A DNA stretch of 64,000 nucleotides from Ruditapes philippinarum. Lineage: Eukaryota. Location of the stretch: assembly GCF_026571515.1 (NCBI RefSeq), contig NW_026862419.1:1-64000 (forward strand), given 5' to 3'. The notes beneath the pieces were generated by a model. The model was not told the DNA's origin, searched no databases, and was given only the letters and a program-made list of their open reading frames with translations. Position 1 is the stretch's first letter. Each line of letters opens with the position of its first letter. This document shows, one piece after another, positions 4,186-28,400 of the stretch. The position numbers and the translations under genes are program-made.

Positions 4186-4324
4186 TAGGGACTGTCAAAT
4201 AAATCATTCAAAATGTTAACTCGAAATAACAGGTTAAAGATTAAAAGAAAAATGTTCAAAATCAAATCAAATTAAGTATTAGCTTTTAAACTTATTTATC
4301 AATTTCCAGTCACGTTGCAATCAT

Positions 4325-4394
4325 ATGATAACAATTGTTATCATGTATATAAGATATAGATATAAATATATCTACATTTACCTCACAGTCATTT
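4325..4394 (+). promoter_or_regulatory. Putative core promoter of the poly-saposin gene: palindromic double GATA site, TATA box, Inr-like element
   Basis: Perfect 20 bp palindrome ATGATAACAATTGTTATCAT at 4325-4344. TATAAATA at 4361-4368. TCATTT at 4389-4394 places its A 30 nt after the TATA start. ATG at 4428. Confidence 0.5.
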
Positions 4395-4427
4395 TAATCA
4401 AGTGATTCTACTTCACTGTGTTTAAAA

Positions 4428-4470
4428 ATGCGGATTTTAATTTTAATATTGCTTGTTGGAATAACTATCG
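4428..4470 (+). CDS. Poly-saposin exon 1, signal peptide MRILILILLVGITIG
   Basis: ATG in aaaaATG context, hydrophobic core, phase-1 donor G|gtatgc that fits the next exon (GAPAVSEVGPCEVC). Confidence 0.8.
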
Positions 4471-7400
4471 GTATGCATTTTTGTATATTGACATTCATAT
4501 CATATTTGAATAAGTTTGAACGAGTCCATTCTTATTTATATAATAAAAAAAATGAAATAAAGTGACATTATGTCCATCCAAGTATACAAAGTCAGTGGAC
4601 ACTTATATATATATAATAGATTTTTAGCCGTAATGTAGTTCAATTTACTTTATGTATAACTATAAAAAAATCAATAATTCAATGTCACCAATGAAAATTG
4701 CTATAAATATCGCTAAATTCCTAAAAATAGTGGAGAAGTTGTTTGTTTTGTTTTTTTTTACTTTAGTAGTGTTTAAATTGTATCATACACATTTTGCATA
4801 ACCAATCATTGGTCAATCACCATTATACCAATCAATCTTTTAAAAAATTATATTACTGATTCATTTCAACTTGACAATGAAATAATGTACATAATGCCAC
4901 TTCAAAATATTAACATATATTTGAATAATGTGCTTATTTCTTTCACATTAAACAATGGTTTTAAAATATCCAGGAAGTATTTATTCACGAATAGATTTTT
5001 GGCATGTTTACAAATGAGGCAAATATATGTAATTATCGATTAAGCAATACTGGTTTATAGAGCATGGCTAATTAAAAAAAACACTCTCTGTTTCCACAAG
5101 TAAATATTAAGACACTGTTTTCATTAATTTTGTGACATTGAAAACGCTAATGATAAGAATAAATATATTATTGCCTTGCATAAGTTGTATAAGTATATGA
5201 TAAATGTAGATCTACACTTTTGTATGAAACAGGAGCCCCAGCAGTTTCTGAAGTCGGGCCATGTGAAGTGTGCCATTTACTAGTCGGGGAGGTCCAAGAC
5301 CTTCTAACAACACAACAAACACAGGTTCGTCGAACAATGCTATTTATAGATAGCCACAACATTTCTTCCTTAAATTTCCTGATTTCATGATTATTTACAG
5401 TAGTTTTGTATTAATCTTTTGGAATTAATGCATTTTGGAACTTTATAAAATCAACAAATATTGCCTGCTTGAAACAGGTTACTCTAAGTTTGTGATAGAA
5501 CTGGTCAACTTAAAATCTTTATCACCTACTGATCCACCATATATGCTTAAAGATTCAATATTTCAGAAAAAAACATTAAAGCAAAACCAACCGCATGCAC
5601 TTTTCGAGTAACCGGATTAATAACTTACAGATTTATAACTTTCTTACTGCGTTTGTGTAAAATAACCTTAAAATTATTTTCTTTTAAATTTACTCGATTT
5701 CCCCCAAAATAAATTAACTTTTACTGATAAGTTAAAAAGAGTATAGCTTGATATTTACTTGAATATTTCTTTGATGTCGGCAAGCAATTAGTTTTTTACT
5801 CATCATTCACAAATGCATATATCTAACAGGCTATCAGTAAAGGTCAGGGGTACAAGTATATGACTGTCTCTAGCGTTGATAGGCAAGATTATTTTACTCA
5901 AATCTTCACTAAAATAAACCTAGGATTAGTTGATATAGGTTAAAACTTAGATAAAATATCTTTCATGAATACGTGAAATAAAGAATGATGTCGATCTACA
6001 AAAACAGATAAACAAAGTCAGTATTGCGTATTATAATTTTTTTTTTCAAATTAAAATGCGTCTGATTTTTCGTCGTATAAAAATCAAACATTCAGGTTAT
6101 TTTATTCCAAATAATATAAGATATCAATTTCATCCAATTTGATCGAATTTTAATCACTTCTCAACCGATCATTTGCTTGTTTAACATTAAATATGATTTT
6201 GAACGTTTCTACATATACTTAACCTTGTATACTTAGGGGGAGTATAAAATTATTATCATGTTCCCCTCTTGTTCAATATTTGTTTTATTAAAGGGTTCGA
6301 TATCAAGCTATGTCAACGACGCTTGCGCAAAGCTACCATCAGAAGAAAAAGACGTCTGCAATAGCTTTCTGAAAGAACATTCAGGAAGTCTTTTCAACAA
6401 ACTGATAAAAGATCTGGTAAGTACATTGTATAATGTGTTGCAAAAATGTAACTGTCACAGTTACATGCTTTTAGCGGACGTTTTAATAACATTAAATTTT
6501 CTTATACAAGTCTGAAACTTTAATAAACTTTAATTTAAGGTTGGGGTATGACCGAGCGTTTGAAGTCTCGGGCAAAGCTCTTTTTTTACGGATTAAACTA
6601 TTGCTTTGGACCTTGTCAGTGCTGAGTCTTTGTTTTTTACCAAGAACTTTAGAAGCTTTTCTTTCGCATGATTGGCCTTAAACAATTTCTCTTTCATTTA
6701 ACTAAGCTAAGAATTATTGCGCGATTCTTATGAATCACAGCAGGCGTTCTACAACTGTACATTGTTCTTGATTTCCGCAAGATTTTGCATAAAATCAACG
6801 GCGTTCACATTTATGTTGGCAGTGTTTATAAAACATTGGTTTAAAACGTTCCTTATATATTGACACACGCTTTATAAACATGATATGAAATCTGTACGTT
6901 TTTCTCCCATATTAAGAGTGTACTAGTATAACTTCTCACGATCTTGATAATGATATTCTTGACATGTGAGAAGCGAATGTGTTGAGAATGTAACACTTTA
7001 CCATTGATCCATGCAGCCCATTTATGTTTTTATCAGTGAGTTCTTAATGTTGTAGACACCACACGAGTTTTGTCAAAGTCTGACAGACGTTTGTCCGTCA
7101 AATAATGAACAACCGGAACCGGAAGTTGAGCAAGAGGAAGAAACAGAAAATCCATCCGGCGTAAGTGTTAACAATTTACGTTGAATTATGAAACGCGCTT
7201 TATGTTGGATACTTTGCATATATACATTACAAATAATATATATTAAGAGCATTTAGCCTTTTATTAAGTTTTACACAGTAACATTTGCGCTGTTTCTTCC
7301 CGACACAAATGTGCATTTCAGATACAAAAACTGTTTATTTATTTATTATTAATGTTTTTATTTAATACTGTGTGATATAATGTTTCAAACCAAACAAAAA

Positions 7401-10400
7401 AATCTTAGACAATGATATGAATATTTTCTTACGTTTCATTATATATTTTGCATTTAATATAAAACACATGTTGATATATATTGTAGAACCCTCTAGAATG
7501 TGAGCTATGTAAACTGGCAGTTCTTGGTATTGACAAAATAATCAAACAGAACAGATCATCAGCAGCTATTAATGATACACTTGAAAAGTTCTGTAATGAT
7601 CTTCCTGATCAAATAAAAGATGTGGTCTGTACAATTATTTTTCCTACATTTTGTTAATATTAGCGTATAAGACGCACACGTGTATAAAACGCATATTCAA
7701 TTTAAATATTTATGTTATGAGAAAAATAACGGCGAATGAATGAAAACACTTTTCATGCAAATGAATCAAATTTAGTCTTGTGTTCTAGTGTATGTGTAAA
7801 TAACGCGAGATTATAGATCTTTATATGAAAGAACAACAACAACAACCAAAAAAGGAAAAGAGAAAAAACGATATATAACGTAAAAAACCTAGGTTACAGT
7901 CTGCGTGGAATAATATGTTTATGTTTTCCATTTTTGTAAAGAATGGACAGTTAGAAAGTTGAATATAATGTTTCAATAGATGCAGAAATATTTAATGTCT
8001 AAATATGTTATATCAGTGATTGACGTCAATATCCATATATTAATACGTATATACTTTCTTGCTGTTTTTTTAGTGTATTAAGATTGAACCCCTCATTCTA
8101 AAGGGACTTACAAATGGATTTGAACCTGGAGTTGTTTGCAAGTTTGCGACGCTGTGTTCACGTACGTATTTTTTTTTTCATTTTAAATGAGAAGCGTGAA
8201 AACCCTGAACTTGGCCTTTGATTGTGTCTCTTATCTGGATCAAAGTTAAAACTGGGTGAACATTGTATCAAAGATGATTTGATTTAAGATAAAATCACAA
8301 TGCCTTCTGATAACAGGCATAACTTTGCTCTTATGATGCAGAATAAACCATTGATATTCATATCAAAAGTGAAATTAAAACATGTACGCAGCACTTGCGA
8401 AAGTCATCGGACAAAGGTTCACAACACCTGACCTAATGTCAAATATGTACACACGCAATTCGAACAGGGGCGTTGACTTATTTGCGAAATAGTAATACGA
8501 TGACAGGTGATGATAAAATTTGTCAATATGTTTGAATTTGATTGGAAATCAATTGGAGCAATTTTACAATGAATAAAAAACCCTTTCGACTATCTTATTT
8601 TAAAGAAATAACTTTAAATATTTTATAAAGCAGAATGACTACTCTTTGACACATAGTGTAAATTAAGTCTTTCAGAACACAGGAAAACAAAAACAAAAAT
8701 CAATAAATATATGTTAACAAACAAAAAAAGAGCAGTCACTATACAGTCAATAACTATGAATAGTTGAAGCAGTATCAGTTATATTACATATGTTCACGTG
8801 TATATACGAGGGGTGTTCAAATATGAATGCAACTAGGCCAATATCTCGCTTTTAGCCACGTTTTGCACAAACTATGTACATGTATCACATAGTTGGTTGT
8901 GTAAGCGCTTGATTGATACAATAAATGTGTAAATCAGTTCAGTCTAGCTTTGACAATAGCTCGATTAACGCTATCCACTAGCATATACTAAAGCTTAAAT
9001 GGTTGGAAAAATGACCAAATACGGTCCTATATCAAAAACCGCTGCATTCTTGGTATACATGCGAAATACATATTTATTGAAATATTTCGTGTTTATGGGA
9101 ACAATGAACTTTTTTTTCCCATATGTCACACGATGGTGAAAGAAATTTAAAAATGGTGTGGATTCGGTAAAAGATGCACCTCTTGCACGTCGTCCGAAAA
9201 CTTCGCCAAATGTGGTTGAAAAGTAAAGGATTTGATTGCTACAGATGCAAGATTCACAACTAGGTATATAGTTAAATGTGTTGGTATCTGAAGCCGCTCA
9301 TACAATTCGATTTAAAAATGAGAAGGATAAGTACCAGATGGATACCCCATCTCCTTACAAAAGAGTAAAAAACTTGCTTGGGTAAGAATCTCCAAACAGT
9401 TCCATGAATACAACAATCGTTCTTTCGCAAACATCATCACTGGCAATGAGTTGTGGGTTCACTTTTATGAGCCAAAGCGAAAGATACATAACAAGATATC
9501 GGCAACCAAAAGAAGTCTAATACATTACATAGGAAAACGCACCATGAGCGTCAAAAATGTCATGTATGTAATTTACTTTACCAAATAAGGTCCTGCTATT
9601 CAAATTGCCGTACCAAAGGGTAAATATGTAAATGCCAAGTTTTGCAAAGGCAAGGTACTTCATAAATCAAAGAAATATTTCAAAAACCGTCGACCAGCAA
9701 CTGACGACCGAACGATAATATTTGAAAGACTAAATAGTTGTCGATATCCCCCAAATTCATTCAAAATATTTTGCCCCTTGAGACTTTTCCTATTTCCGAG
9801 TCTCAAAAAACACCTTGTCGGAAGAAAAATATCAAACGCGAAACAACCTCGGTTGGCTTTTTGTCAGTGTCTTAACTGTTTACCACAATTTTTTTTATAA
9901 AAACGCATTTTAAAGTTGGATTAAAATAATAAAACTTTGTATATCACATGGTGGTGAGTATTTTGAAGGATTGAAATAAATTATTTGACACTGTTTTGTT
10001 AAGGGCCACAATTTCTGGAAAATTGAAGTATGTCGCATATTGTTGGGTTTCAATATTTGAACACCCAACTTCGAACATGTGTCTTTGAAATTGTTTAAAA
10101 AAGGTTTATTTCCTTAAGATCAATATTATGTTGAGAATCAGATGACCACTTTCTTAGTGTATGTTATGATGATAAAAATGTTAAAAATCAAAAAGTCGAC
10201 CTTAAATCCAGATGATATTTATGTATATTTCTAGTGGATACATGAAGAAGCTTAGTGTCACTTAAATAAATCCAATGATGAACGTATGTATATTCGCTCA
10301 TGAAACGTCTAGGGGTCAAGCTGTATTAGGGTACCATGCATTTTGATAGTTTATATTCGGTATATTAGTACTCTCAAGTATCATAACATTTTAAGATCAA

Positions 10401-13400
10401 ATACAGATTATGGATAGTATTTCAACTAAAACAGAATGAACAAACATTTATTTTTAAATGTATAAGATTAGGCCTGATATTTGATATAGAAATCAGCACT
10501 TCACAAACGCCAAATTTCATCTTATCAGTAATTGCGCTTTAAGATATGGCACCGAATTTTCATTTGTTAGAAGCATGCATTTAATAATGATATATTATTG
10601 CACATAAATTATAGTTTCAATGGATAAAAGCAACACGAAAAAGATATGTATACAAATTTTCTTGGTTATTTTTCAATGCCGTGGAATTTGGTTCATTACA
10701 AATAATATTTAAAATATCTTTTTTGCAGGACAGTGAAAGTATTTGTGCTTCACAGAAATCTTGCTTAAAAGAATCTGAATTACAACGAAAACAGGAATCT
10801 GAATCTAAACCGGAAGTTAAAGTATGTGATATGTCAAACGTCTAGAATTTATCTTTGTATTAGTATACATGTAAATAACTTGTTATGTTATTTATGAAAG
10901 CATCTTTCTTCCTTCCATTTAAGAATCCTTTAGCTTGGAGAAATTAGGCTAAATCCAAGTCAGTGCGCGTACATACTTTAAATAAGGTAAACAGGTTATA
11001 CTTGCAAACAAAAGGAAATGATTGATACTACGTTAATGAGGATAAAACAACGTTTCAATAAACTTTTTATGGTAGTGAAGTCTAGTGATCAAACAAAGTA
11101 CAAGTAAAATCATTCTTCGAGCTCTTTCAAGGCAAACAAAAAAAAACGCTCTTTATGCCTTCCTTAGTTTGGAAAGATAAATTGTCCTACGTTATGCGTT
11201 GTTCTAACTGTCAGACATAGTTATAAATCACTTTGTCTTTTAAATTACGTATCCACGTAGTTATAATTGTTGCGAAAAAAATTGTAAATTTAAAAATGAA
11301 AATTTGGTAAATTTTTTACCTATAATTTAATATTTTAGTCTTTTTAAAAAAATTAAAAATTAAAAAGGCCCCACGTTTTGGAATGTCATTTTTTGGGTAA
11401 GTTTCCCTTTGAAAGAGTTTGATTTTTTAATTGTTTGGAAAAAAAACCGATCTTCGCCGCCACCCATTAATTAGGAAATTTTTGGAAAACAGTCTAACCT
11501 TTGGGGAAAAACTGAAAGACCCCTTTTAACGTAGATTGGTTTTTTTGGGACCAAAATTTTCCCATTTAAGTTGCGGCAAAAAAAATCCCAAATTTTTCAA
11601 GTTTCCCAGCAAACTTAAAAACCCTTTTTTAAGTTGCAAAAAAAATTATACTTATGGTAAGTTGCAACAAAATAAACCCATTTTAAGTTGCAGCAAAATA
11701 TACCCTTTTTAAGTTGCAGCCAAATATACCCGATTTTACCAAAGACTAAAAAGATATGGATATCATTTTATTACAATATTCTCTTTAAATAAGTAAGCGT
11801 AACACAATGTCCAAAATAAGTAAGCGTAACACAATGTCCAAAATATAATTATAAATGTTACTATAATAGACTTCTTTTAGATTTCAAAGGAAAGAAATGG
11901 ATAATCAATGAACTATATACCAAAAAACGATAATTTACAAAGAGGCTTTTCATTGTTGTATGACTAACTATTTGCCAAATAAAATGTTAATTGTATTTGT
12001 AATTAACTCTCCGGTCAAGCATTGTTATGTTTCACTTATTTATTATTACACTTATTATTGATTAACTTATTATGGTTGATACAGCTTTTCAGCAAGGCTA
12101 TTTACATTTACTTTATATATAAAGCACTATGTGATCAATACCTGCAATAAGTTATTAAATATAATTATAATTTATATATAAGCTTCTCCTCCTTTGCCTG
12201 GCTAGACAGAAGCGCTAAATTATTTACATACAAATATTTGTCTGTTTTCCAATTTTTCAAGGCAGTTGGTATTTTAATAACTCACTTATTAATTTATCTA
12301 TTACATATGTTAAATATTTGTCTTTATTTCAATTTTAACTAACATCACTTCCAGAAATAAGTTTTAATGTTTTGGGAGTTATCTGTGACCTTTTTTCAAT
12401 GATTTATTTAACCATTTCAAGTCCAAGGATGAACATTATCTAAAATAACTTACAGATACATTTTAATATTATAATCATTATTAGATTGACCGTCCTATAA
12501 TTTCAGTGTTTAAACGTTGAGCCAGATATTCTTAAAGCAATACTTGGTGGAATAGATCCAACCAAAGCTTGTGATTTTCTGAAACTCTGTAATGATGGTA
12601 AGAAGCTGTTCTTAATTTTGTTTTCTCTGTTCATTTAGTGACAATTTCAATCAGCTTTATTTACATAATAAGTATCCATATAAGTTAAATCGTTACGCCG
12701 TACACAATTTAAAAACACTATAATTGTAAAATTCTGAGAGAATATTTTAAAAATGTCTCCTATCTGGTATTGCGCTCCTTGTGGTAATTGGTGATGCACC
12801 GTTTGAGTCAATCTACTGCATTTTATCTTTATATTCAGATCTATCCCGTTACTAACAGTTACTGTATATTTTGACGTGCAATTGAAGATGATCTCAGTAG
12901 TTAGCCACTGTCATAAACTAACATAATACAAAAATGTATATCACTTTACCTGCAGAGGTTTCTAAATTCAACATTTCACCATTTTCATGTTTAAATGAGC
13001 CAGCGCTAAAAGAAGTGGGTGTAACTTGCATTTTACAGTACCGTCCATGAACAGGCTTAATCAAACCGAGCCTGCAGCATGTTCAATATCGTCGTTTGGG
13101 GCGTTCTTTAGGAATTCCGTTCCTATATTCTATGTAGTACAATAAATAAAAATAAAATTATTTTCACAGAGCATGACATGGAAATAACTTGTTGCTTTAT
13201 GAGGAATAAAAAAAGCTATTCGGAATGAATGGTATATATAGTAAAATAATACAAAAGACAACAGAATGTAAAACTGTTCTAATTAATTTTTTTTTTAAAT
13301 TTCAAAGGTGGAAAAGTTCCAATCAGTTCACAATACATCCCATGCGACGTCTGCAAGGAAACATTGGAGTCCATGGCAGGAGAGGTAAATTAAGAGAGAC

Positions 13401-16400
13401 ACAAGTAACCTTAAAGTCATTTCCATAAAGATGGTCATGTTAGATAATTATTAGTTTTGTATTGCTATATCATTTACAAAAAGAGCAAGTCTCAATATTT
13501 GATCAAACTGTTTTTAACAATGATCAAAAACTGGTGTATTAAAACCTTGTTAGGCATTTAGAATTGGTTCATGAGCTCACATACAGTGGAAGTAACATTA
13601 TATTTGATCTAATTGAAATATCAGTAACATGTATTTGATGAGATTTGCCATTTGATTTGTCAAAGAAATTATGTATTTTAGAATACTCTTAAAGCAATAA
13701 TTGGTCATATTTGATACTTTGGCACCACTTTGCTGATTACTAGTTTCGTAATCATTTGAACTTGTTTCTACGTCACTAATGTCTTTAAAAGAATAGCTTA
13801 GTTCATCTTTATTCAGAAAACAATGGCTTTGATGTCAATGTCAACAGCTGCGTATCAGAAATACTGAATCACCAATTTATTACGTTGTCATGGTATCAAT
13901 GCAATCTTCGTCGCCTATGTCACTTTCACTGTCATCTCCACCATTTTCTTTGTGGTCATTATCGTTGTTGTCGTCATCAATATCAACGTTTAGATTATTA
14001 TACATTGAACTGACCTATGATAGCGATGATTATACAAAAACATTTGTGTTTCCTTGTTGACAGACATCTTTTCTTCTTTTGTCTATTTATAGATCGGTAT
14101 AGGAATCTGCTATCAGTTTAAAGATGTATGTGGTTATGAAGAAACTCAGACTGAAATGCACGAAAATCTCAAGTTAATTCCAAAAATTGATTATACCCTG
14201 GATGAAGAGGAATCGGAAAATTTGAAGGTATTTTTTTACTCCTTACCTGCTTGAATCTTTCTTTTTGAAGTTATTCTTTACTACTTGATGATTAATTTTT
14301 TGTTAAATACTCACTCAGCTCAATATAAGGAAAATAGGACAACACGATCGGACACGTACCATTATATTGGTGAAAAAGTATATATATATAGAAATATACA
14401 TAATAAAGAAAGAGAACACAACCTAATTTCACCAGCCAATTAAGCAGATAACTTTTATGTCAAATGTATTGTATTGTGACTGTTTGTTTAGTTAACTGGT
14501 TGTATGTTTAAAGAATATCATTTGCCTTCTTTAGATAGGACTAACACATATTTTATTACATTTAGAGAATATATGTAGAGCATGTTAGAACGTCTGTGGT
14601 TCTAATCAGGTGCCCAATCGTGTCTGAAATAAAGAAAGGAAGGGCACCTAAGGTCTTCCTCAAAAGTAGCCATATGGTCTATAATATGTCGGTGCAACGT
14701 AAAAAAAAAGGAAGAAAGAGCATGTTATAGGCTTTTCTCCTGACGAAAGTAAAGCTTTATAGAGTAGTATTTTAATTTCAAAATTTCCATACAAACTACT
14801 ACAGTACTGCAACTGTACAATTTGCCAAAAGGCAACAGAAGCAAATAAAAGATTGTTGAGAAAATGACAAATAAGTATCATTTTAGAATAATTTTAGAAA
14901 CTTACGCAACACCAAAACAAAAAAGCTTTGCCATATTGAATTTGTTGATATCAGCATTAATTTTGACGAAGAATGGATTAACTCGGTATAATATTAGTTG
15001 TTGTTTTTGTTTTTCTTCAGGAGGATGCCAAGTGCGAGATTTGTAAATACATAATTCAGTTACTGAACGAAGCAGTAGGAACGAATGCATCAATTGCACA
15101 AGTCAACAATACTCTGTTTGAAATATGCTCATACCTACCGGACAATATAAAAAGTTTGGTGAGAGAGATATTGCTAAGCCTTACTATAGATCTTATATTT
15201 TTCTTGTCTGTAACTATCTAAGTACATTTGTTATATATATTCGTATTTGAACTTACTGAACTAGCTTGAGCCACACACAACGTTTTATCATAGCACGTGC
15301 AAATATACAGGTTTACAAAATTGATACAGATCGCTTTCTAATGTTTGCCATATGCCATAAACTATAACATTTATAAAGATGAAATTTGATTATCAAAGAG
15401 CTTTAAATCCATAAGAAAACATGACCACGTTGGTACCAAATAAAAAGTGCGCACACAGGGCCATGTTTGTTCGTACGAGGAAAATAGCTATCACCTGTGT
15501 GTGTACTTGTGCTTGAAATATTACTGAGGACAAATTATCTTCACCTTTACCCTCTGTTTGGATCGTGCTTATACCTAAATGGTGTTATTGTAACAGCATT
15601 TAGTATATGTAGATTCTTTTTGCACTGGTTGTTGCACAATGTTTAAGAAATCCTCGTTCCATAAGGCGTGGGGCATATTTCAACATCCATTATCTCTGTA
15701 GAACACAACAAACTGATACTTGAATCGTCTCGCGTTTGTTTTTATTTATATTTGTAATGCTCAATATATTTATATTTAAATTTATTTTTTCTTTACAAAG
15801 TGTCCTTTGTTTATACCAAGCCTTGAAAAAGCTCTTGCTGATGGATTGGACCCTACAAATACATGTATTGCTTCGAACTTTTGTCAGAGTAAGTTTAAAT
15901 TAACGTTTAAGTATTAACTATGTAACTTACACACATTTGAACTGATACTTAATAATATAATAAGAGGATATTTTTTCGTTTGAGTGAAATATGGAATATA
16001 TTTTCACGAAACATGAAAATATGTGGCATTTTATCATGTTGAGTGAAAATATATACCATATTTCACGAAAAACGAAAAAATAACCTTTTTATTTAATTTC
16101 ATTATCAAAGAAAAATGGTTACAAACCCTATTGCTTGCTACGCAACTGCAATTGTACAGCGCGCAGTAATTTATATTGCGTCTTGTTTTGCACGCGATAT
16201 TTGGCGCTACATTGTGAGGTCACGTAAACAACTGTTTAAACGTCTGTATAGCGTTAATAACTGAAATAGAGGATATTTAATGAGTGTAGTTTAATACTAA
16301 ATTTATTGAACGAGTTGAATAAAATCATATTATGCGAGCCTAAGGCGAGCATAATATTGTTTTATTCAACGAGCTCAATAAATTTAGTATTAAATCTACA

Positions 16401-19400
16401 CGAATATAATATTCTATTTATCACATATGTAAAATAAGAACAGTAAACTGTTACAATGAGTTATTTTTCAATGACGCGCCCATAGTGTAACGCTAACATT
16501 AGCGCGCTTTAACGCTATGTTTCTATATAGCGCAAATGACGTCACGTCAAAGTGTTATTACACTAGTGTAATATCGTTTTTATTAAATGGCTTTATTACA
16601 CTCCTGCGCCGCGGTTTATGTGATAATTATAGATATTGGTGTTCGGATTAATTTTCTTAGTTAGACCATTTTCTATCATTCTAGATAGTTTTCAAAGCAA
16701 AATTCAACAAAACGTTGTTTTTTATTTATCAGATTTTTCAAACAAAATGGCGAAAGAAGTCCCTTAAAATAAATATGAGTTTTAACTCCGCCCACTTTCA
16801 TGTTTTTATTTCATATTTATTTTTAAAAAATATGAAATATATTTGACTGATATAGCACCATATTTCATGGATAGAATTAAATAATTGTTCATATTTCACA
16901 CTGGTTTTGATATTTTTATAAATGTGCTTTTGTATCAAATTTTAAAGCTTTATAATTTTGCTTAGTTGAGATTTGTTACTACAGAATTAGGGTTTGATTT
17001 TATGTTTTCAAATTGTATATAAAACATTCGTTTATCTTACACTTTATATCACTTATTTCGGTTTATAAACTACATTTTTGTTTTGTTTTATAGAAACAGA
17101 ATCAGCGTTTGTATCTATTGAAGACCTAAAATGCACAGTTTGCGCACAAATTGTCGAAACTCTCCCCGGGGTTGAATCTTTTAGAGTATGTACCAATTGC
17201 TTTTTTTTTAAATTATACTTTTAGGAAAACATTATGAAAACTAACAAAATAGCTTAAATATGTTCATGAAAATGTATTAGTGGTACATATGACTGTAATC
17301 ATAAAAGGATTTGAGCATGTGACGTTTTTCTGACTTAAGATTTCTTTTAAATAAGTTACCAGTCTCTGTCAATAAAATTAATTAAGAATTCAATATTATA
17401 CAAAAATATATACTCCTATAACTTATAACTATATGCTACGATGTAGAAATTATTGTAGTGTTTTGTCAAGTGATACATGATTATATCACTTAAGTTTTTC
17501 TTTTATTGAGTATGCATTATTGATATTTTTGTACAGAAATCATTGTCATTTGATAATAATAATAATTTGACATGTATGTTGGACCAGGTGAAGAACGGTA
17601 TTTGTAACAATGTTTGTCACAACAGACACCGTAGATCAGCTGACACGGAATCTTCACTACTCTATCAGGCGGAAGATGCTATGAAGTCAGCAAAGTCTGG
17701 TTTGGTAAGTTAAATAGTGATGTGCTACCTATATATTAATTTGTTAAATGCTTATTAAAACTACAAAACGCAGTTATTTCTATTATTTTCCAAGACAAAA
17801 ATCAAGAACTGGTGTTCCATTAGAGTTACTTAAATTTCTCATTGGAAATATAGGTTCACCATCTTTTATTTATGTTTTAGTTTTATTAAATGTTTGTCAA
17901 TCGCCTCCCCCCCCCATATAACTATTCTTCTTCACGTGATAAGCAACAAATACATTATAAAAAAGAAACATGATAAAACACCGGTTAACACGATAAATGG
18001 CCAAATATAAATGTATGTTAGCAACTGCATGAAAGCTTCTTTTAGAATTTTCTTTAAGTCTATAGATACTATAAATGTCTCGACTGTTCAACATAATCGA
18101 TATATGTGCAAAATAAAACAAAACCTCTTGTATATTATTTCTTTATGCTGATATAAGATGACTTTAGCTACCTTATCTTACAAAGACATTTTGTTTATTT
18201 TATTTTTACAGTTGTAATGAACATTACCATCTCTTTATTGCCAGTTTGTATCTTAAACTACATGTAGTTGCTGTACAAAGTACAGGCTATGTGAACATAT
18301 TACATGAATCATATCCTATTCTATTGATAAGTATTATGTATTTTATGCATAATATGAAAAAATGGCCAAGTTAATTTATACAGAAATACATCGAGTTGAA
18401 CATTTTTATGAATGCACATACATGTATCTGCTGATATGCATTTAGGATATTAATTGGGTGTATAATCACTAATATCTGTTGATTGATAAGTATCTCAGCA
18501 GGTTCTTTAATACTCTAAAATATTATGTTTCATTCGTCGTTATTTTGTTACAAATATTCTTTACCCTAACACGTATAACGTCTAGTTTTTTTTTATGTTA
18601 TTACTCATGTATATTATCCGTACGTATAGATGGCATTTGTGTGACAATTTGTTTCGGTTTTCCTGAGTAATGTCATACCCATACTTTGGGGACCTAGAAA
18701 TTGCTCTATAATAGTATAATGTGGATTTTGTAGAAAATGAAAGGGATTCAAACTTACAACCCACAGAATATAAGACTGAGAGTCTACCCATACGCCATCT
18801 TTCTTCGAATATATCGATTATCATCCTTAAAATTGAATATAATTCTAGATTGCACGACCGCACATGAAACTTATCGCCATCCGAATATACGAAACAGCAG
18901 ACGATAACTCATAGATTATTTAGACTGAATGTGAAAATTAAAAGAGAAATTATAGAAATATTTTAATTTACAGAAAGGACTGGCAGAATGTGAAATTTGC
19001 AAGGTTTTTATCCGTTCACTTGATGGGTTGGCTGGGGAAAATGCCAGTATTGAGACGGTGAACAACACAGTCTATGAAATATGCACGCGTCTTACCGGAA
19101 TACAGCTACAGCAAGCGGTAGGTTTAGATAACGTTTTAATATAATTGTATATCTGTGACATCAGTTTTCGTCCTTGGAATCGGTAGAAAGAGTTTAAAGT
19201 CGCATTGTAATAGAATTTAACAATTCAGTCGGTGAATACAGTGAGTTCAACGTAAAAAATACAAGCAAATATCAAAAAAGGGGGGAAAGCTCACGGAGCT
19301 CAGCCCTTGACAGTAGCTAGCTAAATTAAAACCTTTGAAAATGACGGGGGAACTTCAAATTTGTGATTTTATCATATATTACAAATGTATTACAATTCAA

Positions 19401-22400
19401 TAATTTCTGTTGATATTTGAAGAATGTATATGATTAAAACAGGAAAGACAACTAGTATTAATAGAATTTAAGATAAATGGGAAATTCCTATCCACCTTTC
19501 TACTAGAAATATTCCTGTGACTTTTCAATCATATGCAAAACTGGTGAAACACAGCTTGACATGCAACCATAATCTTTCATGCTCATTATTTTATATGTGT
19601 TTCTTATTGATTAACATACTATCAAGCTTGAATATTTAATGCCACTTTCAGAATTTTAGTAAAATATGAATATTTACTTAATCATTTATAATGCTTACTT
19701 CAGTTTTTTATTGCTCTCTTATGGTCGTTTTATTTTTATAATTATGCTAATAATTTGGTCTTGTATGACAATTTTAACAGTGTCTACAAAAGGCTCCTGA
19801 ACTAACTGTTATTCTCAAGAAAGGTCTGGACCCAGAAAAGACTTGTGTATCAGCAAAATTCTGTACTGAACATGAACATGAAGGTAAAATTAGCATTTTA
19901 TTTTGTATAATTATGTAAGATTATACAATCGTTGTTAACAAATATACATATACATGTATTTCTATATATACGTGACGTGTTGAGCTACTGTTTTAATCAA
20001 AATGTTTCTTCGAAATATATTTAGAAAATAGAATATATATGAATATGCGTATATAACCAGTGATTCCAAATTAATGGGCATATTAAATATTTTTCATAGA
20101 TCTGTTCAACAATAATTATTATGGGTAACTCAGTAACCATCTTGCCATTTTACTGAATTTACAAATTTAATCAATAAATATTTTCTTTCAATGGTAACAC
20201 TAATATGTAATGGCAAACAGGTTCTAAAATGGAAATGTTTGTAAATTTGGGCGTTACTTTTTAAATAAAAATTAGAGTACGGTCTAAACTTTAAACATGT
20301 ACATGTCAGCATAATTATGCTTTTAATAAAACACCAGATATATTGTACATTCTATAAATTACAGTGAAAATCCAGAAAAGAGCAGTACACGAAGAAGAGG
20401 TAAACTATAATAAAAATATTATTTTAAAACATAATATACAACTGTAACTTACACATTTTATTAAACGAGAACAAAGTTACTGATTGGGAACGTACATGTT
20501 TACACATGCATTTATGAGGAATATATACATATGTATCAGTAAGTAATACGACCTTAGTCATAGATATGAATTGTGCGATACTTATTTTGAACTGATTCGG
20601 TTTTCATTTAATATTAACTCCATTTAAACATCTTTCAATTGTACGTTAAAGGGAAATAATATACAACTATAAAACATGCTAATGAGGGTAAAAGCATTTC
20701 CTCTTTCTCGTGATGAATTCAGTTTATTTTGAATGTGTTCCTTTAACAATCGAGTAGTGTCGGGTTTTTTTAAAGATTTTGAATATACATGTATATTTGC
20801 AGTTTAGCTGCTTATACACGTAATTGCAAAAGCGTGTTATGTTAATATTTGTGTAATGGGTTTAATCAAACGGTTATTCTTCGATTTGTAGGAGTCTATC
20901 CTGATGAAAGCTATCAGAGAGAAAGAGAGGCATAATGTTGTAAGTCATTTAACATACATACCACATTGTACACTTTGTAACAATTTTTTTATGTTAACTG
21001 TTTTTTTTTCTCAAAATATTGTGGAAAAGAGAAAAACGGAACCCCTTAGGAACGCCTGAAATGACAAAATTGAAAATTCTGCAGGCTCATATATATATTC
21101 AAAGCAGAAGTTTACAGATGTTTTATCTTTGCTATCATAATTTCTAAGTCTTAACATTTCAATTTTTAGAGACAACATAGTTTATAGACAAGTATGTACT
21201 TTTAAATGTAAAGTAGGCTATACACTTTATACACCCAGATTAATGAAATACGTAAATCTAAAATGCCTTGTATATTAAATGTTATTCGGTTGACATTCAA
21301 CCATTGCATTGTACTGTAAGATATACGAACGATAAAAGAGATTATTATATTAGAAATTTACACACAATTTTCTGCAATCTTTATTATTTATTATGGCAGT
21401 TTTATTTTTACTACCTAATTATATTTCCAACTTGCGTAGGTAATGAACAAAACAGATATGAAGGATAAATCATGGAAGGCTAAAAAGCAATAATGTTATT
21501 CTGCATAACTATATTTGTAGAAGATAATATCTACGTATATTAAAAAAAGAGTTTAGATATAATAAGTCAAAAAGTCTTAAATCATGTAAAGATTTGAGAA
21601 AAAATAAACTAAACGTATTTTTGAACCTTTTTTTAACATTTTGATTAAAGCATTTATTAAAAAGTGGAGTATATATCAACAAAAAAAAAAAACAAATTAA
21701 CATATGAACGAAGAAGCAACACAAAATACCCAAAATCATCAGTTTTAGGGCCATTTGAAATCATTTTTTGTCATATCTCAACCGTCAGTCATCCGAACCG
21801 GCTTTTATCGATAACTAACCTGTTGTTTCCAATTTCTCTGCAAGTAACTACTAATCCCATATGATTGTGAGAGAAAAATGACCCTATGTCTGAATATCCG
21901 ATAACAATTGTCACGAAGAAGTTCGAAGAAGGATCGAACCAGCAACCCCTGGATTACACATCCGAAGCCCTCAAAATTGAGCTTAGCGCACATCCGAAGC
22001 CTTCAAAATTGAGCTTAGCGGTTGGATTGTAAATTGGACGCATATATGGAACGTAGATAGATAACGCAAACCATTTTGTTCTTTAATTCTAATACAGGGT
22101 GACGTGGCATGCGACTTATGTGAAGGAGTTATAGAAATCTTAGACAATCTTCTAGAAGACAATGCCACCGATGAAAAGATCAACCAGACATTGTATAATC
22201 TGTGTAGTGGTCTACCTAGTGGAGCTTTCCAGGACCTGGTATGGTGTTAAAATTTAATGCACATTTGAAATGTGCTTAAGTTTATCTTTTAGACAAACTA
22301 TGAATAATGTTCCGGATTGAATGTTGAAATTTGTTTAATCAGATATCATTTGAGGACAAAGACAATATGTTCGTTATTCCAATCTGGTTAAATGGTTTGA

Positions 22401-25400
22401 TTTTGTTAAGCAACAATACACCGTCCGGTAAGTTAAATATTTAGAGCGTTTGATTGTGAATCAGCCGATCCGGGTTCGATTCCTGGACGGTGCAAGTCAC
22501 TTCCCTTTGTGATTGATTTTGAATACTTTCTACTGTCATTCACACTGAACCTCTGCTCTGGCTTGTACAGAAATTTATCAGGTCCTTTGCGAAAGTGAAA
22601 GGAGCTAGAACTGGTAACCTGTCTGACAGCCTGCCAAGGAACGATGCGGTGGCTGAACTGTGCTCTGGGAAATTCACTGGGATCCTGAGTGAAAACTACC
22701 AACAAAAAACAAGCAACAGTTCATCGATATGTTTTTCCTAAAAATGATTACTATCGTTAAACTTTATACCGTTATGTTGCATACAGTTTTGTTCAAATTA
22801 TAACATACCAGAAAGCAATACAGGAACTAAAGATTACTATTATAGTAAATTGTTCAGAGTTTCTGTATTAATTGATAATAGTATATAAAAAAGTTAAACA
22901 TACTAAATTTACATATGCATTGTTACCTTCACTATGATACAAACAGAATGTACATGTAACTGCAAGTTGGATACCTTAAACACCTTATAAGTAGATATCT
23001 ATTGTCTTAACTTATAACTAAAATTGTTTGTTTTCAGTGTATGCAAATAGTCCCAACAATTATGACGGCTGTAGATAACGGTTTCGATCCTCAAACAATA
23101 TGTACAGATGTTGGACTTTGTACGGGAAGAAGTAAGTCTTTTAACAATTCACAATTAGAAACTTTTCGTCAGAACCATTAACAGTAAATTTTAAATATTT
23201 TGTTTATAGGCATAGGTAATGTGAATGTTAGGTTATAACAGAAGGCGTAGCATCAACGGCAATGATAAAAGGTTGTCGAATAGCATATAGTACTTAACCT
23301 ATTTTTATAAACGTTGAGTTCATCTTATTACTTCATCATTAGTATGCACTTCTAAAGGTCCATTATTTCTCAGAAATGATTGTATATTCATTTGACGTAA
23401 GCATTTAAAAAAAGAAAATGTTTGTCACCTGTTATATATAATACTGGTAATTCCTAAAGGCTACTCATTGGCTAATTATCTCAACCGTCGTTTGCTTCTA
23501 TTGTCTTTTGGCATTTTGTGCTCTGATAGTGATTTTCTATGAAAGTCAAAATACTGCTGTGTTTACATTTTGCTACTTTTATAACAAATAATTTCAGCCC
23601 ATTCTAAAGAAGGAACAAATATTGGTTTCTGATGCATAATGTGCCTGTACGCTAATATAAATGAATAAATGTCTTTGTATTTGTTATGGTACTTCTTACA
23701 TTATAATTTTATTTATTTTATTATATATATATCATATAGGCAAGGTGGGAAGTAGGCTACCGTTGAGAAAGAAACATATGCCAGAAAAGAGTGTAAATGA
23801 AAATGTATGCTATGATTTTGTATTTATTGCTATAATAATGTTATGTGAGTTAAAAACAAAATAAATAAACTTTACGAATCCTGATAACACCAGCACACAT
23901 GCATTTCCTTCTAAGTTGGTCAGAAAAAGTTCATATTTATGGCTGGAAATGGAAAAGTAACTTTTCCGGCATAGATTTTCCAGCATTTTAGTAAACATTA
24001 CAGTATTGTACATATAAACTATATAGAAATCACGTAATTTGATCAAATCACATTGTGATTTCAAGTTTCGATGGTAGAGACATTGCATGGTATGTCATGA
24101 ACTTTCTTCAGCTGCTGAGCATTCCAATATCATTACCTTTCAGACTTAAACAGATAATATTGTCACTGTTTTACAGTTTGTGGTATTCTGAGCAAATTGA
24201 TTATTAAATGATTAAGTTTATTTTTTAATTTTAAAAACATTAATGAAATATTACATAAAGAAATCATCTTATATTTTTTAGGAAGAATCAATCCTGCTTG
24301 ACACCATAGTTGCAAGACGGATGGCACAACAAAGTGTGGTACTTATTTTTTAGATATTTGTTGTTTGTTTTTTTGGTTTTACGGCGCACTAGCACAATTA
24401 AGGTCATATGGCGTCGAAGTAGGAAAATGATTTTTGCTAAACTCGGGTGTTACAAACTTTAAGCAACACCAGAGGTCAAACCACCTTACCTGCTTGAGCT
24501 AAGAGATGCATAGACTCAAGTAATTCAAACCCATTTAGTCGCCTCTTACAATCACGAGTTAACCGGTGGCTGCAGTTCTGGTGCCTTAACACGTTAACGA
24601 CAACCCCTGAGCCACAGATGGAATTATATTTTCTGTAACAACTTTAAAAAAGAATGAAAAATAAATCAAAATATATGTTAAAATATCACCAAGATGGAAA
24701 ACGGACACATTTCTTCTAGTCTCTAAGAATCTGATATTGTGTTCATTAATTCTAATACAGGGTGGTATAGCATGCGACTTATGTGAAGGAGTTATAGAAA
24801 TCTTAGACAATCTTCTTGAAGAAAATGCCACCGACGAAAAGATCAACCAGACATTGTACAATCTGTGTAGTGGTCTACCTAGTGGAGCTTTCCAGGATCT
24901 GGTATGATATGTAATTTTGATTTACAATCATATTTGTGCTAGATAACATCTCTACATAGCTTTCCATCATGAGTTTTACATTTTCACCATCAATCTGTTA
25001 ACATTAAGTCTTAAATGAGATACCATTTGATGTCATAAAATATAAAGGGAAGAGTAAATAAGGGAGAGCGACGTTCACAAAACTTGTACCACTATGAACT
25101 GTCACACAAACAAAAATTTCCGTGTCACCAATTTGATTAAATGGAACAATTTTCCTGTGCAACATTTGAATGCTATAGTATTATTTAGAGATATATTTTT
25201 TTCATAGCATTGTATTACATTGTCAAATTTTAAAGTATATTTTATAGCCAAGCTGCAATAGATAGAACAAATGGTTGCAATGATTGAACCTTCCTAAATA
25301 GTTTGAAAATGAGAAAATAAGCCAAGTATTTTTGTCTTTCGTTTTATTTTTATTTTGTTAAATGCATGGGAATCATGCCACTGGCAAACACATAGAACAA

Positions 25401-28400
25401 CATGATAACGTAGTCAAAACATTTTACTCTTAACCTATACTATTCTTAGTAGAACTTGATTTTACTTCAGTGCATGCAAATAATCCCAACAATTATGACA
25501 GCTGTAGAAAACGGGTTCGATCCTGAGACAGTATGCACAGCTGCTGGACTCTGTACAGGAAAAAGTAAGTTAGTCAGCAATTAAAATGATGAGATATTAT
25601 ATCTAAATGATTATATTATGATGATTATCATTAAATTCCAAAATAGTAATGTTAGACTTGATTGCATAAACTGCATCATCACATTGGATAAGGACATTGT
25701 GTCTAACGTTTTTAAGTTCCTCTATAAATAATTCTTATAATTAGCAGTTATAACAATTTGAAATAACAATTTGAAACTGACACAAACTTTATTTTATTGC
25801 CTTAATAAATGAGTTTGAATAATTATAATATAATGTAAGACTTTTTGATGATAGTTATTTAAATTATTTGCTATAGTAGTATTTGATTTATTATTTCACC
25901 ACTTGGTTAAATGAATATATCTGTGTATCATTTAGGCAAGATGAGGAGTATGACATTGGAAAAGAAACATTTGCACGATGAAAATATCAACAACAATGTA
26001 CGCATTGATATTTCCATTTACTTTTGAAATCAACTGATGTTATATAACAAAACCTTTCCGGAGTCTTCAAAATACGTTTCAGAAAATTTGACATAATACG
26101 TTTAACTACATCACTAAAATTATATTACTACAGTATTTGCTTTTGTTCTTTTATCGAAGTCAACACATATATAGTTTTTGTATTTTACGGTATTAGGGAG
26201 ATACATTAAGACATTTGCTAACGATTGAATCTGCATTATTATTGAACTTATAATATGTATGCTATCAGAATGATTAGTATAACTGTGATAACTTTACCGT
26301 TTGGTAAATCTGTAACACATTGTCAATCTGTTTTTCTTTAAGGAAGAATCAACACTGCTTGACACTAATGTTGGTAAAGAAAACACACAGCGGAATTTGG
26401 TAAAGATACATTTTTTATTTTTTTTAATTGCGATATAATGCAAACTGTGAATTACTGCCATTTAAAATTATGTACTAATCAACGCCTGTCAATTTAGACA
26501 GCAGCGCAAAGCTAGTGTCAATAGGATGTCAATTTTCAATTCAATATTAAAAAGTGACATCGGCATAACAATGAAAAGCTTTGCAAATGTCTTCTTCCAC
26601 GTTAGTTTATTTTTATTACAAAATCATGTTTTGAGGTTTGAATTTAAGTTATATATGACTTGTGAGCTACCCTTCCATCCGACCAGACGTATGCATCTGA
26701 ATCTAGATCAAACTTCGCAAAATGTTTTGTAACGCCAATATTTTGGGATATTGCTTTGAAGTGTTTATTACAATTGTTTATGGCCATCATCACCATTTGT
26801 AGAACATAACACTTGGTAATGTTTCAAATTTCACCTCTTTCCTGTTTTGTGTGAACTTGAAACACTTAATAAAAGAACATCGTTTTCACATATAAACAGA
26901 AGTAAATTGACACATTTTGATATTATAAAAAACTGTTATGTTTATCAATAACAAGTGTTTTAAGACATATTCGATTTAACTGACAAATAATGGAAATGGG
27001 CGAGTTTCTTGTCTGTGTATTGTTTATCATTTCATTACTTTTACAGAAAGATTTGAAGTGTGAAGTGTGTAAAGCAGTCATTGAAGAACTGGACAGTTTG
27101 GTCAAACAGAACGCAAGTATTGAAAAGATAAATGAAACCCTTTATGATGTTTGCAACCAGCTTCCAGGTGCTTTACAAGATTTGGTAGGTTATCGAATAA
27201 ACCTCAAGAAACCTTTTTTCCTGTCTAAAATTGTATCTTTAAAGATCCTGTATGTTTTGTGATTGATATTGTTACTGTATGTATCGTACACTTGCAAAAT
27301 ATTATATATGTATATAATTATGCAAATAAAACAATTTTCAAACATCCAAGAATATGTAAAATGTGTACTGCAAATATTTGTGCACATTATATTTAATCAA
27401 TAAGTTACCTGCATTCATTTCTTGTTGGAAAATTTGACTTGGAATTTATAGAAAATAAATTTCTAATTACCTTCCTTTATTTACGCAAAATGTTAAATTG
27501 GGTAATATCTTTATAGATAATGCTTATTAGAACTTACAAGATTGATAAATCTTAATTTGAGCGTCATATTTATGAAATAAAACCATGAAAAAAATGTGTT
27601 ACAGGATCTTTAAATTTAATATACTGTAGATACGAATGTCCCTAGATTTTTTACATGAATTTTCAGCCATTTGTGAAATTTAATTGGCATGATAGTATTA
27701 TCGCTGCATATAATCGTTTGATTTATTTTCCATTCCTATGATAAGCTGCCGTGCGATAAATATCGTTTTACTGATTGATTTTTATATGTTTAATTCAGAA
27801 GCTAGTTATAAAGAAAACAGTTCTATAACTATAAAACGGTTCAGAATATATTGTCTGAGAGATCATATTTGTTTGTCATGTGCATGTTTAGATATGTTTA
27901 TTTTCAGTGTCTACAAGCTGCCCCTCAAATCCTTAATGCCCTCATGAATGGAGTAGACCCATCAGAAGCATGCGGATCTCTCGGTCTGTGCTCCAGTGAA
28001 GCAGGAATTACAGATACCACAGAGAAAAGTTTTGACGTGAGTTGCACTTTCCATGTACCTCAAAAATGTGTAGAATAAGACTTGAAACATTTAGAATGAC
28101 ACAAAAAGTAAACCCAATGAATTAGATGTAGACATGTATAACTATAATGTAAATTCTTTATATCATAAGTTGAAAACCCCTTTTAATTTGTAAGGCCCAT
28201 TAACGTCTTAAATTGAATGCACATGCCGCGTATCTGTACGGTCTTACCTTTTAGATTTAGTGAGAAATAAAACACTCGTAACAAACATATTTAATATTAA
28301 CTTAAACGTTTATACAGAATGTTGAAGATGTGAAATGTGAAATATGCACGCTGCTTGTTCAAGGCTTGGATGAAATTTTAAGAGGCAATGCAAGTGTGGC

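What the first reader, a model, noticed from the sequence alone, without database searches (positions are those of the whole stretch)
13308..14135. Four-Cys mini-saposin lacking the central hairpin
Seen: CDVCKETLESMAGEIGIGICYQFKDVC joins a saposin-like CxxC helix directly to a terminal C-x6-C in only 27 aa. Known: SapB disulfides pair C1-C6, C2-C5 and C3-C4, so removing C3/C4 and the middle helices leaves both remaining bonds satisfied. Inference: a minimal two-disulfide helical hairpin derived from SapB. Related shortened modules at 10729 and 17094 alternate with full domains, implying an ancient [full + mini] repeat unit.
Basis: partly seen in the sequence, partly recalled or inferred. Interest (0 to 1): 0.7.

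Follow-up and report, generated by a model that had tools for sequence, protein, structure and literature searches.

The report
Natural half-saposin cap in bivalves
A large clam gene for lipid-handling saposin domains also encodes a spliced 27-residue, four-cysteine module, conserved in clams and mussels, that is likely half a saposin left by loss of its middle exon, is predicted to fold as a helix hairpin like the man-made lung-surfactant peptide Mini-B, and likely caps the full domain beside it.

Summary
The window encodes a 1,706-aa multi-saposin protein of the Manila clam (XP_060558736.1). Exons 13308-13384 and 14093-14227 are joined directly in RNA contigs, so the 27-aa C-x2-C-x15-C-x6-C module is real and no exon restores a full domain. 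The exact spacing recurs in 10 of 12 bivalve homologues (7 genera; absent in 2 oysters). All three short modules of the gene have a phase-0 intron five codons before the penultimate cysteine, as in the gene's first, three-exon saposin domain, whose middle exon carries C3 and C4; loss of that exon is the likely origin. Each module follows a full domain on a 10-16-residue linker. A complex prediction gives only weak support (0.42, best control 0.02) for docking on that domain. The third module always precedes the protein's only furin-type site. Disulfides, fold and function are untested; Pfam and fold searches do not recognise the module. The nearest analogue is the engineered SP-B peptide Mini-B. 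I found no description of a natural one. The assembly lacks two exons of this gene. Verdict: a new variant of a known domain family, of moderate interest.

The parts
13308..13384 (+). Exon (phase 1 to 0): linker from the preceding full domain and first helix of short module m3 (C1 13343, C2 13352, then 10 residues)
   Evidence: RNA joints
13385..14092 (+). GT..AG phase-0 intron at the place where the middle helices with C3/C4 would be; no hidden exon used
14093..14227 (+). Exon (phase 0 to 0): second helix of m3 (C 14108, C 14129) and an acidic, variable linker
12507..12597 (+). Second exon of full SapB domain B2, the domain before m3; its 138-nt first exon is absent from the assembly
   Evidence: 137 unplaced letters between 10822 and 12507 in X2, X5 and X7
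10729..10821 (+). Second exon of short module m2 (C-x5-C); its first exon is absent from the assembly
   Evidence: loose end before 10729 in 3 of 3 RNA-type runs laid; four-Cys m2 in Mercenaria, Mactra, Dreissena, Sinanodonta
17094..17185 (+). First exon of short module m4 (phase 1 to 0)
17588..17704 (+). Second exon of m4 (C-x3-C), with the protein's only R-x-[KR]-R furin-type site at 17624-17635
   Evidence: the cleavage motif is recalled, cleavage not shown
5233..7160 (+). First full saposin domain A1 in three exons: 5233-5324 (1 to 0), 6294-6416 (0 to 0, 41 aa, carries C3 and C4), 7056-7160 (0 to 0); likely parent type of the short modules
7487..8161 (+). Full SapB domain B1 (exons 7487-7624 and 8074-8161), before m2
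15021..15888 (+). Full SapB domain B3 (exons 15021-15158 and 15801-15888), before m4
4428..4470 (+). First coding exon; hydrophobic N-terminus read as a signal peptide (no predictor run)
4428..40163 (+). Whole coding span of the multi-saposin gene LOC132719018 (Ruditapes philippinarum); no SapA domain

Best explanation
This is a spliced, bivalve-conserved 27-residue four-cysteine module in a multi-saposin precursor; it likely arose by loss of a saposin domain's middle exon, is predicted to fold as a two-disulfide helix hairpin, and likely docks as a cap on the full saposin domain just before it. Shown: splicing, spacing, conservation, intron positions, short fixed tether. Inferred: (1) an A1-type domain lost its phase 0-0 middle exon (C3, C4, helices 2-3), leaving 22 residues between C2 and C5, later trimmed to 19-20 (m4) or 15 (m2, m3), about one and two helical turns; (2) C1-C6 and C2-C5 stay paired, as in saposins; (3) a lone leaf cannot bury its hydrophobic face, so it packs on the neighbouring domain, stabilising or shielding it in the secretory or lysosomal route until proteases, including a furin-type cut after m4, separate the units.
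For: Direct splice in X1 and X2. Spacing exact in 10 of 12 homologues; non-Cys identity of m3 to Ruditapes is 74/61/57/39% in Mercenaria/Mactra/Mya/Mytilus, against 47/11/14/23% for the linker after it; the 3 variants that one search lists in exon 13308-13384 are synonymous. Intron 5 codons before C5 in 3 of 3 short modules and in A1, but just before C4 in 6 of 6 other domains checked. Non-Cys residues at both ends match full domains better than all 300 shuffles. Helices 10-21 and 23-31 with the break at the invariant A-G; amphipathicity like full domains (0.43/0.39 against 0.46/0.36). Full-to-mini linkers 10-16 aa (n=23) against 8-51 between full domains (n=77). Complex of Mactra B2 with m3: weak support, score 0.42, best of 3 controls 0.02, runs agree in 100% of contacts, partner pLDDT 73 or more against 34 with an unrelated chain; at 0.60 or under the mark was reached by only 5 of 78 solved complexes and by all 4 mismatches that passed.
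Against: No disulfide, fold or binding has been measured. The isolated model is modest (pLDDT 65, pTM 0.36) and in the full-length model the modules are under 50, with m3 drawn as one long helix. The complex pass is of a grade more often wrong than right; saposins are known (recalled) to dimerise in solved structures, so it may reflect likeness. Sinanodonta has four near-identical copies of a mini-preceding domain with no mini behind them, and oysters lack m2 and m3, so a cap is not obligatory. No convincing shared surface patch marks full domains that precede a mini (best column 22 of 1000 permutations, relatedness ignored). Sequence scores do not single out A1 as parent of m3 (2.6 for the C-terminal type, -0.9 for A1, -2.3 for B). 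Intron positions were read in this one genome only.
Confidence: 0.5

Rival explanations
1. The module is cut out and works alone or as a dimer on lipids, as a natural Mini-B: an always-open saposin leaf that perturbs or lifts membrane lipid at acid pH.
For: [quoted passage not shown] Amphipathic helices. Acidic net charge (m3 mean -2.1, range -4 to 0), like lysosomal saposins (recalled). A long variable linker follows it.
Against: The N-terminal tether is short and fixed in length, and is conserved in sequence among heterodont clams (36-79% identity), which suggests it is not a disposable cut site. Mini-B's activity is tied to positively charged helices; m3 is not cationic. No peptide has been reported in my searches.
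Confidence: 0.2
2. The module is a non-lipid-binding structural knob that works like prosaposin's SapA domains: a small disulfide-held unit for sorting or for setting cleavage points.
For: The protein has no SapA domain, while the clam's separate prosaposin has two. In 10 of 10 proteins that reach it, m4 ends 2-5 residues before the protein's only R-x-[KR]-R site. SapA domains are cleaved off and carry a sortilin-binding sequence (PMC5483003). No N-glycan sequon in 24 of 24 minis against 105 of 108 B domains.
Against: m2 and m3 have no such site. The hydrophobic faces are kept. This role is not exclusive of the cap reading.
Confidence: 0.2
3. The module is not saposin-derived: an independent alpha-hairpinin-like or metal-binding four-Cys motif that arose in the linkers.
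For: Pfam SapB models hit 0 of 8 minis. Fold searches gave no saposin. Two-disulfide helix hairpins arise repeatedly (PMC7191063). m4 differs in spacing.
Against: Intron phase and position match A1 in 3 of 3 modules. 4 of the 6 weak PDB sequence hits are saposin A or granulysin (E 0.36-0.71, not significant). Atlas neighbours are SapB clusters, at lead-only scores of 0.83 and 0.76. A luminal location argues against zinc binding (inference).
Confidence: 0.08
4. An artefact: a middle exon is missing from this error-prone assembly or is alternatively spliced.
For: The assembly does lack two other exons of this gene, and a four-Cys 'truncated' saposin protein has been corrected by RNA-seq before (Cnpy1, PMC13037941).
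Against: The transcript contig has no extra letters at this junction; 10 of 12 independent gene models show the same module; 15 of 15 listed Dreissena isoforms (of 26) keep all three minis.
Confidence: 0.02

Closest known systems
Mini-B / Super Mini-B (engineered SP-B mimics; PDB 1SSZ, 2DWF as named in PMC5424708)
   Same: N- and C-terminal saposin helices joined by a short turn, middle helices omitted, four Cys; Mini-B has the two nested disulfides inferred here. Skipping A1's middle exon would leave 22 residues between the inner Cys (17+5), the number I count in the Mini-B sequence printed.
   Different: Mini-B is synthetic, cationic and a free peptide. The bivalve modules are natural, shorter (15 or 19-20 between inner Cys), neutral to acidic, and embedded in a precursor. 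Fold searches did not return Mini-B.
Saposin B-type (SAPLIP) domain, Pfam SapB_1 PF05184 / SapB_2 PF03489
   Same: C-x2-C in an amphipathic first helix, terminal C-x3..6-C, same gene and exon frame as true SapB domains.
   Different: Lacks C3, C4, helices 2-3 and the glycosylation site; cannot form the two-leaf pocket alone; below Pfam detection.
Prosaposin / Drosophila Sap-r (multi-SapB precursors with SapA domains)
   Same: N-terminal hydrophobic leader and tandem SapB domains, likely cut apart by proteases.
   Different: No SapA, about 16 full domains, lineage-specific tandem gains, three short modules and one furin-type site. The clam's prosaposin is a different locus (G000:C13600).
alpha-Hairpinins and cystine-stabilised alpha/alpha peptides
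   Same: Helix-loop-helix with Cys1-Cys4 and Cys2-Cys3, released from multi-module precursors (PMC7191063).
   Different: They use two CXXXC motifs; these use C-x2-C and C-x3/5/6-C. No sign of homology.

Membership tests
SapB / SAPLIP domain | Six conserved Cys forming three disulfides | tested here: not met
   Four Cys in 24 of 24 short modules; feature as stated in PMC5483003
SapB / SAPLIP domain | Four to five helices in two leaves | tested here: not met
   27 residues; two helices in the model
SapB / SAPLIP domain | Pfam SapB_1 or SapB_2 match | tested here: not met
   0 of 8 minis at E up to 10; the whole protein matches both
SapB / SAPLIP domain | Homology of both ends to helix 1 and the last helix | tested here: met
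   Non-Cys scores above all 300 shuffles for each module type; shared intron position with A1. Any in-register amphipathic helix would also beat this shuffle in part.
SapB / SAPLIP domain | Structural superposition on a saposin | tested here: inconclusive
   No Foldseek hit at E 0.001; best Z 2.4; model small and of modest confidence
SapB / SAPLIP domain | Lipid or membrane interaction | not testable with these tools
   Needs an assay
Mini-B-like single leaf | Terminal helices joined by a turn with the middle omitted | tested here: met
Mini-B-like single leaf | Nested C1-C6 and C2-C5 disulfides | not testable with these tools
   No coordinates are returned by the folding tool; inferred from PMC5424708
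Mini-B-like single leaf | Cationic surface | tested here: not met
   Net charge m3 -4 to 0, m2 -5 to -2, m4 -2 to +1
Prosaposin (whole protein) | SapA domains flanking the SapB array | tested here: not met
   No SapA hit in P0001; both genomic SapA matches are on C13600
alpha-Hairpinin | Two CXXXC motifs | tested here: not met
   First motif is C-x2-C in all modules

The most novel reading that the evidence does not exclude
Bivalves evolved, by exon loss, the same single-leaf saposin that chemists built as Mini-B, and have kept it since the split of clams and mussels as a functional half-saposin that completes or gates the lipid pocket of the neighbouring domain, or is released as a lipid-active peptide: a natural minimal unit of the saposin fold.
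Probability: 0.35. Interest if true: 0.65.

Novelty: new variant of a known kind. Interest (0 to 1): 0.48.

Why it matters
Saposins work by opening two leaves around lipid, and six cysteines are treated as the family's signature. A natural, long-conserved single-leaf form tests directly what one leaf can do and whether it regulates a partner domain. It offers a short acidic counterpart to the cationic Mini-B scaffold used in synthetic surfactants, and it is a clean case of a new module born by loss of a symmetric exon. It also flags a large, uncharacterised bivalve multi-saposin distinct from prosaposin. The limits are that it seems confined to one gene family in bivalves and that no function is shown.

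Tried and rejected
Hidden middle exon in 13385-14092: none used. My idea that 11370-11520 is a garbled copy of the missing B2 exon: a homopolymer-compressed alignment did not beat intron controls, so it is not shown; the stretch is rich in long runs and has no DNA-run cover at 11431-11604. A CQIC stretch at 8437 as the missing m2 exon: no RNA cover beyond the known exon. Full-length AlphaFold of the Mactra protein: pLDDT 55.5, modules under 50, uninformative. Foldseek and wide structural searches: no clear hit. Pfam hit to Pput2613-deam in 4 of 8 minis: under the cut-off, treated as noise. P0039-P0041 from the representative search are unrelated repeat proteins from metagenomes. No non-bivalve homologue appeared, but only the m3 profile and long proteins were searched, so absence outside bivalves is weakly tested. 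Shared surface patch on mini-preceding domains: inconclusive. Earlier scan notes: nothing. The Bruhn 2005 review is not held.
Full report
Gene. The window's + strand holds one gene from 4428 to 40163. A search with exon 14093-14227 returned a single protein, 100% identical: XP_060558736.1, LOC132719018 of Ruditapes philippinarum, 1,706 aa, unnamed. Pfam finds SapB_1 (15 stretches) and SapB_2 (12) but no SapA. The two SapA matches of the genome lie on contig C13600 around a separate SapB array, the likely prosaposin. The exon matches once in the genome.

Observation. Exon 13308-13384 (phase 1 to 0) and exon 14093-14227 (0 to 0) give C-x2-C-x15-C-x6-C, residues 274-300. Of 4 runs laid on 4300-20500, the two contig runs X1 and X2 show the GT..AG joint; the two raw-read runs had almost no exon cover and show none. 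One X2 contig places 12597 at letter 377 and 14093 at letter 455, leaving exactly the 77 letters of the one exon. The three variants listed in that exon are synonymous, one of them in C1.

Assembly faults. Three of three RNA-type runs carry 137 unplaced letters between 10822 and 12507 and a loose end before 10729: the first exon of full domain B2 and the first exon of short module m2 are missing from the assembly, and the RefSeq model bridges the gaps wrongly. The finding's own junction is not affected.

Conservation. One search gave 11 proteins, all bivalve; searches added Mytilus records and Sinanodonta. I parsed 12 proteins, one per species, leaving out P0011, P0037 and isoforms. m3 (2-15-6) is exact in 10 of 12: Ruditapes, Mercenaria, Mactra, Mya, Dreissena, Sinanodonta and four Mytilus; two Saccostrea lack it. 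m4 (2-19/20-3) is in 10 of 12; the other two records end before it. m2 (2-15-5) is in 4 of 12; Mya has it with a 13-residue insert. All 15 listed Dreissena isoforms (of 26) keep the three modules. m3 is conserved about as well as full domains and far better than the linker behind it, except in Dreissena (22%). The clam-mussel split is Palaeozoic (recalled).

Origin. The first domain, A1, has three exons: 17 residues after C2, then a 41-codon phase 0-0 exon with C3 and C4, then an intron five codons before C5. All three short modules have a phase-0 intron five codons before their penultimate Cys, with 10 (m3) or 14 (m4) residues after C2; six other domains checked break just before C4 instead. 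Loss of A1's middle exon would leave 22 residues between the inner Cys; 19-20 and 15 are about one and two helical turns shorter. This is inference from one genome. Residue scores support saposin ancestry (0 of 300 shuffles reach the observed value; the B-domain null used 25 of 108 domains) but do not pick the parent. The full domains before m2 and m3 group together (84/90, rough; 91 rows from 8 species), those before m4 do not, so [full + mini] was likely duplicated once for m2/m3 while m4 is older or separate.

Structure. AlphaFold on 8 aligned minis gave two helices broken at the invariant A-G, pLDDT 65. In the full Mactra protein the modules score under 50. Pfam, Foldseek and the wide search do not recognise the module; PDB sequence hits are weak but mostly saposins. 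Disulfides were not testable; nested pairing follows from the saposin pattern (PMC5424708).

Mechanism. Each mini follows a full domain on a 10-16-residue linker (n=23), against 8-51 between full domains (n=77) and 13-37 behind minis (n=22). The helices are amphipathic, neutral to acidic and unglycosylated. Folding Mactra B2 with m3 gave weak support: 0.42, best control 0.02, partner pLDDT 73 or more, runs agreeing fully; passes at 0.60 or under were 5 of 78 solved complexes and all 4 passing mismatches. I therefore favour a tethered cap on the preceding domain (0.5), with a released lipid-active peptide (0.2) and a SapA-like sorting or processing knob (0.2) as rivals. Against the cap: Sinanodonta repeats such a domain four times without a mini, and no clear docking patch was found. 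In 10 of 10 proteins that reach it, m4 ends 2-5 residues before the protein's single R-x-[KR]-R site, always followed by Ser, so m4 likely closes the N-terminal cleavage product.

Known versus new. The closest thing is Mini-B, a designed 34-residue peptide of SP-B residues 8-25 and 63-78 with two disulfides and surfactant activity (PMC5424708; passages and section 4 read). The module fails the six-Cys, two-leaf definition of SapB, so it is a derivative, not a member. Searches showed no description of it or of this protein; for most hits I saw only listings and abstract starts, and subscription papers and supplements were not seen. Passages read: PMC5483003, PMC10437998, PMC13037941, PMC13552887, PMC7191063, PMC5086354, PMC5270565, PMC10690110. 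The last three mention bivalve saposins only by name; a 'saposin B' more than 80-fold enriched in symbiont-bearing gills was not matched to this family.

Verdict. Real, conserved and apparently undescribed; origin by exon loss likely (about 0.75); function open. New variant of a known kind; interest 0.48.

Noticed in passing
window 8162-12506: The assembly lacks two coding exons of the gene; RefSeq XP_060558736.1 reads through the donor at 8161 and drops half of a domain. 11300-11700 is rich in long single-base runs and partly uncovered by a DNA run.
   Followed up: yes
window 20365-20939, about 23741-24338, about 25937-26399: Three Cys-free linkers, each on two exons with the same phases (1 to 0, 0 to 0) as the minis and with basic clusters; possibly fully decayed modules or processing spacers.
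   Followed up: partly
window 17624-17635: Single R-x-[KR]-R-S site conserved from oysters to clams although the number of domains on either side differs widely.
   Followed up: partly
window 30374-35918: Recent tandem copies of one SapB domain with near-identical introns; separate expansions in Mercenaria, Dreissena, Sinanodonta and Mytilus, and Dreissena isoforms differ by whole 88-aa repeats.
   Followed up: partly
window about 34400-34670: A tandem duplication of roughly 135 bases covering an intron end and the start of an exon.
   Followed up: no
window about 8800-10250: Repeat with broken reading frames that look mariner-like (recalled, not tested), covered by many divergent RNA reads; it lies in the intron where the m2 first exon is missing.
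   Followed up: no
window 12950-13100 and about 15950-16900: High-copy intronic repeats with very deep, divergent read cover.
   Followed up: no
window about 735-1110: GC-rich short tandem repeat array upstream of the gene.
   Followed up: no
G000:C13600:301418-359229 (-): Separate SapA-flanked saposin gene, likely prosaposin, whose domains break 17 residues after C2, the same place as the first intron of A1.
   Followed up: partly
P0003 and P0006: Dreissena and Mya carry an extra, divergent full SapB domain directly after m3 that Ruditapes, Mercenaria and Mactra lack.
   Followed up: no
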